A DNA stretch of 61,572 nt from Candidatus Limnocylindrales bacterium (GTDB taxonomy: Bacteria > Moduliflexota > Moduliflexia > Moduliflexales > JAUQPW01). The position numbers and the translations under genes were made by a program. The notes below the pieces were generated by a model. That model made no database searches, was not told the DNA's origin, and saw only the letters and a program-made list of their open reading frames with translations. Location of the stretch: the NCBI GenBank assembly GCA_035559535.1, contig DATMBG010000033.1, positions 1-61,572 on the forward strand, given 5' to 3'. Positions 1 to 41,184 of this stretch are shown here, piece after piece (the first letter of the stretch is position 1; each line of letters begins with the position of its first letter).

Positions 1-123
1 GCTGAGTTCCAAGGCGCGAAGACGGCGGCCTTCGCGCCAATCCTTAGTTTGGTTTGACAGGGTCAGTTTCATAAAATTTATTTTACTTCCCTGTCTAACT
101 TATAGCTAGAGATTATTAGCAAT

Positions 124-39965: not shown

Positions 39966-40244
39966 ATGATAGTCTCCTAGAAAAAACAAATTTTATTTTT
40001 AGATCTTTTTTCACCTGACTTCTCTCAGAGTCCCCTTTATTTCATCTAAAAATTTTCTTGTCAAGAAAAACTTTCCCTCCATCCAAAAATTTACCTGAAG
40101 AATAAATTCTGTAGGTTACTGGACTTTTTTATTGACGAAATGCCTGTTCACTTTGTAATATTTGAAGGATAAAAAATTTTTTAATAAATTGAAATCTCCA
40201 ACACTCGACCGACTTTTAGAATTCCTGATCTAAGAAGGTGGTCT

Positions 40245-40613
40245 GTGGATAACTCCGCTATCTGTGTACCCAATATCGGCCCTAGAGAAAGTCAAAAGCG
40301 ATTTAGAATGGGAACAATCATGTTGATGGTGGCCGTTGGACTGGCCGTCACCTTTATAGCTATGGACGTAAATCGCTGGTGGCGGGTAAGCCTTTTTTTA
40401 CCATTCTGGGCAAGTACCCTGGGCTTTTTTCAAACCCAAGAGAAAACCTGAGTGTTACTGGCTAAGCGTGGGTTGCGCAATCTGGACAAAGGGATCGAAA
40501 AGATCCAGACTAAATCTGAAATAATGCAACTTCACTACCAGGCCCGGAAAGTTTATATTAAATCCATATTTGTAGCAATTTTATTGACACTTTTAGGTTT
40601 GTTGATTCCTTGA
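40245..40613 (+). CDS. putative membrane selenoprotein (Sec at TGA 40449-40451), 122 aa
   Basis: Frame continues 53 codons past TGA (VLLAKRGLRNLD...AILLTLLGLLIP) and ends 16 nt before rmlC; hairpin just after TGA. Confidence 0.7.
40452..40487 (+). promoter_or_regulatory. candidate bacterial SECIS element
   Basis: Apical stem GCGTG-GGT-TGCGC (40466-40478); G-containing loop begins 19 nt after UGA. Confidence 0.5.
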
Positions 40614-40629
40614 TAGCCAGGAGTTAAAA

Positions 40630-41184
40630 GTGAGGTTCATAAAAACAAAGTTTAAGGGTCTCTTGATTATTGAACCCCAAATATTTCGAGATGTAAGGGG
40701 GTTTTTCATGGAGAGTTACAACCGGCGAAAATTCTCTGAAAATGGAATTCCTTCAGAGTTCGTACAGGATAATATAAGTAGATCGGTAAAGGGTACTTTG
40801 CGCGGACTGCATTATCAACTCAACCCTCATAGTCAAGGTAAACTTGTTCGGGTAACCGAAGGCGCTGTATTTGATGTGGCGGTGGACATTCGCTTTGGCT
40901 CCCCTACCTTTGGACAGTGGTTTGGTTATATCTTAAGCGCGGAAAATAGGCACGCTCTCTACATTCCCCCGGGTTTTGCGCATGGTTTTTGTGTATTAAC
41001 AGATGAAGCGGAATTTACCTATAAATGTACCGCATTTTATGTGCCGGAAGCAGAACGCGCGATTATTTGGAACGATCCGCAAATCGCCATCCAATGGCCT
41101 ATCACTCCAGACCCAAATTTAATGTCGGAAAAGGATAAAAATGCCCCTACTTTAAGTAGAGCTGAAATTAATTTTTATTTTTAA
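40630..41184 (+). CDS. rmlC: dTDP-4-dehydrorhamnose 3,5-epimerase
   Basis: DVRGFFMES, LRGLHYQ, QGKLVRV, PPGFAHGF. Confidence 0.96.
   Translation: MRFIKTKFKGLLIIEPQIFRDVRGFFMESYNRRKFSENGIPSEFVQDNISRSVKGTLRGLHYQLNPHSQGKLVRVTEGAVFDVAVDIRFGSPTFGQWFGYILSAENRHALYIPPGFAHGFCVLTDEAEFTYKCTAFYVPEAERAIIWNDPQIAIQWPITPDPNLMSEKDKNAPTLSRAEINFYF

What the first reader, a model, noticed from the sequence alone, without database searches (positions are those of the whole stretch)
40245..40613. Hidden membrane selenoprotein candidate: in-frame TGA plus SECIS-like hairpin upstream of rmlC
Seen: the 68-aa ORF ends at TGA 40449-40451 in GFFQTQEKT-U-VLLAKRGLRNLD. The frame stays open for 53 more codons encoding a third hydrophobic helix and ends 16 nt before the rmlC start, closing an otherwise 178-nt gap. 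A hairpin GCGTG-GGT-TGCGC has its G-containing loop 19 nt after the UGA. Knowledge: bacterial SECIS elements lie immediately 3' of UGA with this geometry. From recall, small membrane proteins with the C-x-(x)-NIGPxE...LGF(L/F)QA motif carry Cys at the TGA position. Inference: a Sec-containing membrane protein whose Sec could pair with the N-terminal Cys7 (ICVPNIG). It is not a selenoprotein family I recognise.
Basis: partly seen in the sequence, partly recalled or inferred. Interest (0 to 1): 0.88.

Follow-up and report, generated by a model that had tools for sequence, protein, structure and literature searches.

The report
Hidden membrane selenoprotein, new family
A small membrane-protein gene that looks cut in two by a stop codon is really one gene whose UGA encodes selenocysteine, and it belongs to a widespread family of environmental-bacterial proteins that is missing from the current lists of selenoproteins.

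Summary
The core interpretation is strongly supported. Window 40245-40613 (+) is one gene for a 122-aa, three-helix membrane protein with UGA-69 read as selenocysteine.

- **Sec machinery:** the genome has selA, selB, a Sec-containing selD and tRNA-Sec.
- **Cys at the column:** all full-length homologs carry Cys there (122 of 127 representatives).
- **TGA conserved:** it is kept in a same-genus genome, in 54 of 79 metagenome loci, and in 14 of 14 Gemmatimonadota genomes that have the gene.
- **Downstream frame:** it stays open for 52-56 conserved codons after the TGA.
- **SECIS:** Sec forms share a hairpin, GCGC-GGUC(A/U)-GCGC, with GGU at +22..24, the same register as E. coli fdhF. Cys forms encode the same peptide with other codons and lack the hairpin.

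The window's own hairpin (40466-40478) is the weakest of the set. It sits at the homologous position and is within the range of this genome's other Sec genes.

The proposed Cys7-Sec69 pair is not general: 7 of 10 unbiased Sec forms lack the N-terminal Cys.

The family has no Pfam or NCBIfam model and no structural relative in the PDB. It is absent from a 2026 inventory of 119 prokaryotic selenoprotein families. Its N-terminal motif is distantly like the YgaP-like TM domain (PF11127). Function is unknown; I infer a reactive selenol at the cytoplasmic membrane face.

The parts
40232..40238 (+). Shine-Dalgarno-like AAGAAGG, 6 nt before the start codon
   Evidence: Read from the sequence. Conserved in G001. 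Its function is inferred.
40245..40613 (+). Complete selenoprotein CDS: 122 codons including UGA-69, plus the stop TGA at 40611-40613
   Evidence: Full-length ~122-aa homologs align end to end. G001 is 87% identical over residues 1-122 with 1 TGA.
40263..40313 (+). N-terminal juxtamembrane motif C7-V-P-N-I-G-P-R-E-x-x-K-R-x-x-x-G23. N10 is invariant. Cys7 is present in only part of the family.
   Evidence: N10 in 127/127, R19 in 125/127, N-terminal Cys in 77/127. hhalign matches it to the PF11127 N-terminal motif (probability 68%, E 4.8e-5, 24 columns).
40302..40373 (+). TM helix 1 (residues about 20-43)
   Evidence: Hydropathy. The AF2 model of homolog P0018 has a helix at 12-38.
40386..40430 (+). 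TM helix 2 (residues about 48-62), ending in the conserved G-x-x-Q
   Evidence: Q63 in 115/127.
40449..40451 (+). UGA codon 69, read as selenocysteine
   Evidence: Cys at this column in 122/127 representatives. TGA in 54 of 79 metagenome loci, with TGC/TGT in the other 25. TGA in 14/14 Gemmatimonadota genomes. The genome has selA, selB, selD and tRNA-Sec.
40466..40478 (+). SECIS hairpin GCGUG-GGU-UGCGC (stem 40466-70 with 40474-78, loop 40471-73)
   Evidence: It sits at the position homologous to the family-wide hairpin (alignment A4). G001 changes U.G to U-A at pair 30-36, which keeps pairing. It has the same GGU triloop as G000's selD SECIS. It is weak at -2.9 kcal/mol, but within the -0.9 to -9.8 range of six other Sec genes in G000.
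40452..40547 (+). Cytoplasmic segment after Sec: a short helix, a beta-hairpin (R-G-x-R-N-x-D-x-G) and an amphipathic helix
   Evidence: AF2 on P0018 gives H69-74, E76-78, E83-85 and H89-119. Conserved columns A73, G76, N79, D81, G83. Residues 63-100 hold 7 K/R.
40548..40610 (+). TM helix 3 (residues about 102-122)
   Evidence: Present in all Sec-form loci that are long enough: 50 of 54 have a 52-56-codon downstream ORF.
40630..41184 (+). rmlC (dTDP-4-dehydrorhamnose 3,5-epimerase), probably co-transcribed. Context only, not a conserved partner.
   Evidence: PF00908, E 3.8e-76. AGGAG at 40619-40623. This neighbour is not seen in other loci.

Best explanation
Window 40245-40613 is one gene, not two. 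It encodes a 122-residue inner-membrane protein with three helices, in which UGA at codon 69 is decoded as selenocysteine by the genome's SelA/SelB/SelD/tRNA-Sec system. Decoding is directed by a small SECIS hairpin 14 nt downstream (40466-40478). The protein belongs to a large, unnamed Cys/Sec family of about 120 aa. The Sec/Cys sits in the turn right after TM2. By the positive-inside rule this turn faces the cytoplasm, next to an invariant N-I-G motif from the N-terminus. These points are shown or well supported. What follows is inferred at about 30% confidence. The selenol is the reactive centre of a membrane-interface site that handles a sulfur- or selenium-containing species, or another thiophilic small species. 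The analogy is the conserved Cys at the end of TM2 in the dimeric YgaP-like TM domain, which lies near the thiocyanate-binding site. In the subfamily that includes this window, the N-terminal Cys7 may act as a resolving residue. In many Sec forms no second Cys exists, so the general mechanism must use a single selenol, an external thiol or a second protomer.
For: **Sec machinery in G000.**
- selB scores 408.6 bits and selA 622 bits.
- selD carries 1 in-frame TGA.
- tRNA-SeC (tca) is present.
- Five AhpC/TSA genes each carry an in-frame TGA.

**Cys/Sec pairing.**
- All 14 homologs that reach the column have Cys there.
- 122 of 127 representatives have Cys there.

**TGA is conserved.**
- G001 keeps it.
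- 54 of 79 metagenome loci have TGA and the rest have TGC/TGT (the query was biased toward Sec forms).
- 14 of 14 Gemmatimonadota genomes that carry the gene have it, out of 151 sampled, using a profile built from Cys forms.
- 1 of 3 Vicinamibacterales carriers has it.
- selB is present in 5 of 5 TGA carriers tested.

**The downstream frame is translated.**
- 50 of 54 loci have a 52-56-codon ORF after the TGA.
- Amino-acid identity is 0.54 downstream against 0.43 upstream.
- 45% of nucleotide differences fall on codon position 3.

**SECIS.**
- 82.8% of cells are paired in 44 Sec forms against 41.6% in 23 Cys forms.
- The core four pairs are intact in 42/44 against 6/23.
- The Gly codon is GGU in 38/44 against 2/23, and the second Arg codon is CGC in 42/44 against 6/23.
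- Local MFE is -10.0 against -3.7 kcal/mol.
- GGUC starts at +22 in both the family consensus and E. coli K-12 fdhF.

**Fold.** AF2 on the Cys homolog P0018 gives pLDDT 95.3 and pTM 0.86.

**YgaP analogy.**
- PF11127 is the most recurrent weak Pfam hit, in 25 of 126 members.
- hhalign gives probability 68%.
- The only invariant column in 25 true PF11127 sequences is the Cys after TM2.
- YgaP C159 lies near the SCN- site and the dimer contact (passages of PMC4730233).
Against: - No experiment shows Se incorporation.
- No RNA run holds the stretch.
- The window's own hairpin is the weakest of all Sec forms: -4.4 kcal/mol over the 19-nt window, inside the Cys-form range of -0.5 to -7.0.
- Support for the SECIS comes from conservation and codon choice, not compensatory covariation. 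The covariation score is 0.054 against a shuffled 0.051, reached by 123 of 500 shuffles.
- The metagenome sequences are related to one another, so the Fisher and Mann-Whitney p-values overstate.
- There is no conserved gene neighbour to anchor a function.
- The YgaP relationship is below Pfam threshold and aligns only 24 columns.
- Cys-form carriers also have selB, so having Sec machinery does not force the Sec form.
Confidence: 0.88

Rival explanations
1. These are two separate small genes, 68 aa and 53 aa, as public annotation has them. UGA terminates the first, and the GTG at 40452 restarts the second by translational coupling.
For: NCBI-derived records hold the two halves as separate proteins on one contig (P0167 at 68 aa and P0027 at 53 aa). 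A GTG directly follows the TGA. The window's hairpin is weak.
Against: Homologs are single ~122-aa polypeptides with Cys at the junction. The TGA always occupies exactly the Cys column. In other Sec forms the codon after the TGA is GTG, ATT, ATC or CTG, so it is not always a start codon. The SECIS is specific to TGA forms.
Confidence: 0.04
2. It is a pseudogene: a TGC/TGT to TGA nonsense mutation of the Cys codon in this lineage.
For: TGA is one substitution away from either Cys codon.
Against: The same TGA occurs in G001 and in dozens of diverged loci, with the downstream frame intact in 50 of 54 and constrained. The Sec machinery is present.
Confidence: 0.02
3. It is a true selenoprotein, and the mechanism is the first reader's: an intramolecular Cys7-Sec69 selenenylsulfide redox couple.
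For: G000, G001 and the 5 truncated representatives all have Cys three residues before N-I-G. The AF2 model places the N-I-G residue in a beta-bridge next to the hairpin that follows the Cys/Sec. Cys occurs 1-3 residues before N-I-G in 77 of 127 representatives.
Against: 7 of 10 unbiased Gemmatimonadota Sec forms lack that Cys, and 4 of 10 have no Cys at all. 44 of 127 representatives lack it.
Confidence: 0.2
4. It is a true selenoprotein whose Sec is a soft-metal ligand (Cu, Hg, Zn or Cd) in a small membrane metal-handling protein.
For: Several known bacterial membrane selenoproteins are metal-related: MerT-like, a P-type ATPase and the SO_0444 Cu/Zn efflux family (Table 1 of PMC13188914). 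In 19 loci the gene follows an ABC-FtsX-HlyD efflux set.
Against: A single Sec, often with no second thiol, is a poor metal site unless the protein oligomerises. There are no metal-resistance genes in the window's neighbourhood. The efflux synteny is confined to one group of related loci.
Confidence: 0.1

Closest known systems
YgaP-like transmembrane domain (Pfam PF11127, formerly DUF2892)
   Same: Both have the N-terminal juxtamembrane motif N-[IV]-G-x-x-[DE]-R-x-x-R-x-x-x-G, then a two-helix hairpin, then a conserved Cys right after TM2. PF11127 is the most recurrent weak Pfam hit of the family (25 of 126 members, best E 5.8e-4). hhalign gives probability 68% and E 4.8e-5 over the N-terminal motif. 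In YgaP that Cys (C159) lies near the SCN- site, and the two C159 residues of the dimer approach each other on binding (passages of PMC4730233).
   Different: The window's protein has no PF11127 hit even at E<=1. The alignment covers only 24 columns. The Cys context is T-[C/U]-V-x-L-A rather than G-x-C-P-x-Y. This family has about 50 extra residues: a short helix, a beta-hairpin, an amphipathic helix and a third TM helix. Sec forms were documented here only for this family.
Known bacterial integral-membrane selenoproteins (Sec forms of YeeE/YedE, MerT-like mercuric transport protein, SaoP permease, SO_0444 Cu/Zn efflux transporter), as listed in Table 1 of PMC13188914
   Same: They have Sec within or next to a membrane domain, they have Cys-containing homologs, and a bacterial SECIS follows the UGA.
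   Different: The window's protein matched none of their models in Pfam-A or NCBIfam 20.0. It is much smaller (122 aa, 3 TM). Its motif, T-U-V-x-L-A, is not listed.
E. coli fdhF-type bacterial SECIS
   Same: The stem-loop begins 11-14 nt after the UGA. The apical GGUC starts at +22 in both fdhF of K-12 and the family consensus.
   Different: The family stem is a near-perfect GC helix formed by Arg, Gly and Arg codons. The window's own version is a 4-5-bp stem with two G.U pairs, GGU is shifted to +23..25, and no bulged U is evident.

Membership tests
Bacterial selenoprotein gene (Sec-decoded UGA) | In-frame UGA aligned with Cys in homologs | tested here: met
   14 of 14 homologs that reach the column have Cys. 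122 of 127 representatives have Cys.
Bacterial selenoprotein gene (Sec-decoded UGA) | UGA conserved in orthologs of other genomes, with the downstream frame conserved | tested here: met
   G001. 54 of 79 metagenome loci. 14 of 14 Gemmatimonadota carriers. A 52-56-codon ORF downstream in 50 of 54 loci, with aa identity 0.54.
Bacterial selenoprotein gene (Sec-decoded UGA) | SECIS stem-loop directly 3' of the UGA with G in the apical loop | tested here: met
   For the family. For the window, a weak but homologous hairpin at 40466-40478, kept in G001 by a U.G to U-A change, and within the strength range of G000's other Sec genes.
Bacterial selenoprotein gene (Sec-decoded UGA) | Genome encodes selA, selB, selD and tRNA-Sec | tested here: met
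Bacterial selenoprotein gene (Sec-decoded UGA) | Selenium shown in the protein (75Se labelling or MS) | not testable with these tools
   No proteomic data are available. No RNA run is listed.
PF11127 YgaP-like_TM | Score above the Pfam gathering threshold (25.3 bits) | tested here: not met
   No hit for the window's protein at E<=1. The whole-genome search finds only another gene, on C21. 25 of 126 family members give sub-threshold hits.
PF11127 YgaP-like_TM | N-[IV]-G-x-x-[DE]-R-x-x-R-x-x-x-G motif, two TM helices, and a conserved Cys after TM2 | tested here: inconclusive
   The motif aligns by hhalign (probability 68%, 24 columns). The helices and the Cys position agree by inspection, but the alignment does not extend to the Cys.
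Any of the 119 listed prokaryotic selenoprotein families (PMC13188914, Table 1) | Match to the family's Pfam, NCBIfam or TIGR model | tested here: not met
   Pfam-A and NCBIfam 20.0 give only sub-threshold hits: PhoLip_ATPase_C at E 0.023 and NrtS at E 0.06. I read Table 1 in sections 7.1-7.2. Rows identified only by CDD or PTHR ids are Trx-like, CopZ-like, BtuF or Fe-S proteins. Those could not be scanned, but they are not small 3-TM proteins.

The most novel reading that the evidence does not exclude
This is a previously undescribed class of small integral-membrane selenoproteins, an offshoot of the YgaP-like TM domain with a fold that has no solved relative. A single selenol sits at the cytoplasmic end of TM2, often with no other Cys in the protein. 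In a homo-oligomer it would act as a gate or relay for passing sulfur or selenium species across or along the membrane. On this reading it is a selenoprotein transporter or relay rather than a soluble oxidoreductase, and it is fixed as the Sec form throughout Gemmatimonadota.
Probability: 0.18. Interest if true: 0.8.

Novelty: new member of a known kind. Interest (0 to 1): 0.62.

Why it matters
The gene is mis-annotated in public records as two tiny hypothetical proteins. The same error probably affects every Sec form of this family, which includes all 14 carriers in the Gemmatimonadota sample.

Recognising the family does three things:
- It adds a membrane-embedded member to the bacterial selenoproteome, which is dominated by soluble thioredoxin-fold proteins.
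- It gives a clean Sec-versus-Cys natural experiment, with synonymous-codon evidence for a SECIS inside coding sequence.
- It marks the conserved Cys of the poorly understood YgaP-like/DUF2892 type of membrane domain as a probable reactive centre.

It also extends Sec use in soil phyla (Gemmatimonadota, Acidobacteriota), where few selenoproteins are described.

Tried and rejected
- **Rfam:** a scan of four loci, including the window's, found no SECIS family match. Only two chance-level hits appeared.
- **PDB fold search:** Foldseek with the AF2 model gave 0 matches at E<=0.001 (best E = 1).
- **Complex prediction:** two copies of the Cys homolog gave no verdict (score 0.00). This is neither for nor against dimerisation.
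- **ESM Atlas:** The natural Cys homolog P0018 returned only unannotated 'hypothetical protein' clusters.
- **The search of earlier findings:** nothing, either by sequence or by genome.
- **Gene neighbourhood:**
  - An ABC-FtsX-HlyD set lies upstream in 19 related loci.
  - A 760-aa ORF with no Pfam hit lies upstream in 12 loci.
  - Neighbours are heterogeneous elsewhere: beta-lactamase fold, Ser/Thr kinase, ABC-F and PQQ dehydrogenase.
  - I rejected neighbourhood as a functional anchor.
- **FdhA in G000:** it has no in-frame TGA, so it could not serve for SECIS comparison. I used selD and five Prx-like genes instead.
- **RNA evidence:** no RNA holder is listed.
- **Second hairpin at 40492-40506:** it is identical in G001 but not conserved in the family and too far from the UGA. 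I rejected it as the SECIS.
- **Literature:** five full-text searches found no paper that describes this family. They used these terms:
  - selenoprotein / new selenoprotein families / metagenom / bacteria
  - DUF2892
  - YgaP / rhodanese / transmembrane
  - selenocysteine / Gemmatimonad / selenoprotein
  - membrane selenoprotein / bacteria / SECIS

  Supplementary tables of deep-Sep, BSepDB and the review could not be opened and might list it.

Full report
**Observation.**
A GTG at 40245 opens a frame that meets TGA at 40449-40451, after ...GFFQTQEKT. An AAGAAGG run lies 6 nt upstream of that GTG. The frame continues for 53 codons (VLLAKRGLRNLD... and a hydrophobic tail) to TGA at 40611-40613. 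That stop lies 16 nt before the GTG of rmlC at 40630 (PF00908, E 3.8e-76). The hairpin GCGTG-GGT-TGCGC occupies 40466-40478. Upstream, on the other strand, is an MFS transporter. Downstream of rmlC is an aconitase-family gene.

**Can the organism decode Sec?**
Yes. The genome (G000, 5.6 Mb, 58 contigs) has the following:
- selB at 408.6 bits, above the cut-off
- selA at 622 bits
- a selD that itself carries one in-frame TGA
- a tRNA-SeC with anticodon TCA
- five AhpC/TSA-family genes with an in-frame TGA

**Do homologs align across the TGA?**
A word-indexed search with the read-through product returned 15 proteins. Fourteen reach the TGA column and all 14 have Cys there (...EKT-C-VALAARGLRNLD...). 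The fifteenth (P0003, 84% identical) stops at residue 68.

An exhaustive HMMER search found 809 cluster representatives at E<=1e-3 and 186 at E<=1e-10. Among the 150 listed, five diverged proteins end exactly at query residue 68 (sequences). That is the signature of Sec genes truncated by gene callers. In a 127-sequence alignment the column is Cys in 122, and N10 is invariant.

**Is the TGA conserved?**
- A same-genus genome (G001) keeps it, with 87% identity over all 122 residues and an ATG at the position of the window's GTG.
- A metagenome scan seeded with the truncated forms returned 80 loci. In the 79 whose match reaches the column, the codon is TGA in 54, TGC in 20 and TGT in 5, and nothing else. 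I dropped L104 because its match ends at residue 48. This ratio is biased by the query.
- Unbiased censuses used a profile built from Cys forms.
  - Gemmatimonadota: 14 of 151 sampled genomes carry the gene, and all 14 have one TGA.
  - Acidobacteriota: 2 of 201, both Cys.
  - Order Vicinamibacterales: 3 of 121, of which one has TGA.
- selB is above cut-off in 5 of 5 TGA carriers tested. It is also above cut-off in three Cys carriers and in G001.

**Is the downstream frame translated?**
Downstream of the TGA, 50 of 54 loci have an ORF of 52-56 codons. The other four are cut by contig ends. Mean pairwise amino-acid identity is 0.54 downstream against 0.43 upstream. Of the nucleotide differences, 45% fall on third codon positions.

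**Independent sequencing data.**
A contig from another study is identical across 40338-40582. Two diverged relatives show no listed change at the TGA, although 51 difference rows were not shown.

**The SECIS.**
I aligned 78 nt around the codon for 44 unique Sec forms (A4) and 23 unique Cys forms (A5). Both alignments are gapless. Duplicates and loci with fewer than 66 nt downstream were dropped.

Nearly all Sec forms have (U)CGCGC-GGUC(A/U)-GCGCG(A), built from the codons for [S/A]-R-G-x-R-[D/N].

| Measure | Sec forms | Cys forms |
|---|---|---|
| Cells paired in the 7-bp helix | 82.8% | 41.6% |
| Four core pairs all intact | 42 of 44 | 6 of 23 |
| Gly codon is GGU | 38 of 44 | 2 of 23 |
| Second Arg codon is CGC | 42 of 44 | 6 of 23 |
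| Mean MFE of the 19-nt window (kcal/mol) | -10.0 | -3.7 |

So the same peptide is encoded with hairpin-forming codons only where the codon is TGA. True compensatory covariation is slight. The sequences are also related to one another, so the p-values overstate.

The apical GGUC starts at +22 in the family consensus, exactly as in fdhF of E. coli K-12, which I fetched and checked.

**The window's own hairpin.**
It is the weakest of the Sec forms: -2.9 kcal/mol for the 13-mer and -4.4 for the 19-nt window. GGU is shifted to +23..25. On its own it would not be convincing. Three points support it:
- It sits in the homologous position.
- G001 changes the U.G pair to U-A.
- It has the same GGU triloop as G000's selD SECIS.

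By the same measure, six other Sec genes of G000 range from -0.9 to -9.8 kcal/mol.

**What the protein looks like.**
Hydropathy gives three hydrophobic segments, at residues 20-43, 48-62 and 102-122. K/R-rich stretches flank them at the N-terminus and at residues 63-100. By the positive-inside rule this predicts the N-terminus inside, Sec69 on the cytoplasmic side and the C-terminus outside. This topology is an inference.

AlphaFold2 on the natural Cys homolog P0018 (48% identical) with 126 aligned sequences gave pLDDT 95.3 and pTM 0.86. The model has two long helices, a turn holding the Cys, a short helix, a beta-hairpin and a long final helix. One N-I-G residue forms a beta-bridge. Foldseek found no PDB relative.

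**Comparison with what is known.**
- The window's protein hits no Pfam-A or NCBIfam model above threshold.
- ESM Atlas neighbours of P0018 are unnamed.
- Public sources give these proteins no name or call them 'hypothetical protein'. NCBI-derived records hold the two halves of the window's gene as separate 68-aa and 53-aa proteins.
- I read Table 1 of the 2026 review PMC13188914 (section 7, parts 1-2). It lists 119 prokaryotic selenoprotein families with domain ids, and none fits.
- Passages of deep-Sep (PMC12013277) and BSepDB (PMC13326102) mention no such family.
- Supplements were closed, so the novelty claim rests on main texts and on the model libraries.

The nearest known family is the YgaP-like TM domain, PF11127:
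- It is the most recurrent weak hit among family members: 25 of 126, best E 5.8e-4.
- Twenty-five true PF11127 sequences taken from genomes show N-V-G-x-x-D-R-x-x-R-x-x-x-G, two helices and an invariant Cys after TM2.
- hhalign links the N-terminal motifs at probability 68% and E 4.8e-5, over only 24 columns.

So the family resembles PF11127 and may be distantly related to it, but it is not a member. In E. coli YgaP that Cys (C159) lies near the SCN- binding site, and the two C159 residues of the dimer approach on binding (passages of PMC4730233). A DUF2892 gene was about 10-fold induced under sulfide oxidation in Azospira (passage of PMC5358917).

**Mechanism.**
Shown or strongly supported: this is one gene, with Sec at codon 69 directed by a SECIS in the coding sequence.

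Inferred: a reactive selenol at the cytoplasmic end of TM2.

Of 10 Gemmatimonadota Sec forms, only 3 have the N-terminal Cys and 4 have no Cys at all. It remains possible in the window's subfamily.

My preferred reading, at about 30%, is a single-selenol site that handles a sulfur-, selenium- or other thiophilic species, possibly at an oligomer interface as in YgaP. The one self-association job gave no verdict.

Gene neighbourhood gives no anchor.

**Verdict.**
This is a genuine, mis-annotated selenoprotein gene. It is the window's representative of a widespread Cys/Sec membrane-protein family that current selenoprotein inventories and model libraries do not contain. In kind it is a bacterial selenoprotein with Cys homologs and a bSECIS, which is well known. 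The family itself, its fold and its membrane setting are new.

Noticed in passing
G000 contigs C10:79469-79873, C22:224863-225267, C42:30214-30618, C44:137373-137744, C32:13457-13783; C29:76668-77594: The genome is Sec-rich. Five AhpC/TSA (Prx-like) genes each have one in-frame TGA, and selD is itself a selenoprotein. FdhA-like genes have no TGA.
   Followed up: partly
G014:C27:4529-4705 (L147) and G048:C87:20435-20593: Matches to true YgaP-like_TM (PF11127) carry in-frame TGA: two in G014 and one in G048. These could be Sec forms of PF11127 or genomes that read TGA differently.
   Followed up: no
window 40405-40423 (+): A terminator-like hairpin followed by a T-run (CTTTTTTCAA) lies inside the ORF, 26 nt before the UGA. 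G001 keeps it apart from one A-to-G change at 40413. The number of such sites in the region is not above chance.
   Followed up: no
window 40492-40506 (+): A second hairpin, GGAUC-GAAAA-GAUCC, lies about 41 nt after the UGA. It is identical in G001 but not conserved across the family.
   Followed up: partly
L071:712-2991 and 11 related metagenome loci: A ~760-aa ORF with no Pfam match ends about 10 nt before the selenoprotein gene in 12 loci.
   Followed up: partly
L017, L018, L023, L024, L064 and others (19 loci): In one group of loci, which includes Vicinamibacterales MAGs, the gene directly follows a MacAB-like set: ABC ATPase, FtsX permease and HlyD adaptor. This is probably lineage synteny.
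   Followed up: partly
window 40245-40451 and 40452-40613: Public NCBI-derived protein records hold the two halves as separate proteins of 68 aa and 53 aa on one 180-kb contig. The gene is therefore split in current annotation.
   Followed up: yes
G000 relatives: The gene was found in only 2 of 61 genomes searched (G000 and G001), and in 0 of 7 same-order genomes. The nearest full-length relatives are 42-48% identical Cys forms from other phyla. This suggests a patchy, possibly horizontally acquired distribution.
   Followed up: no
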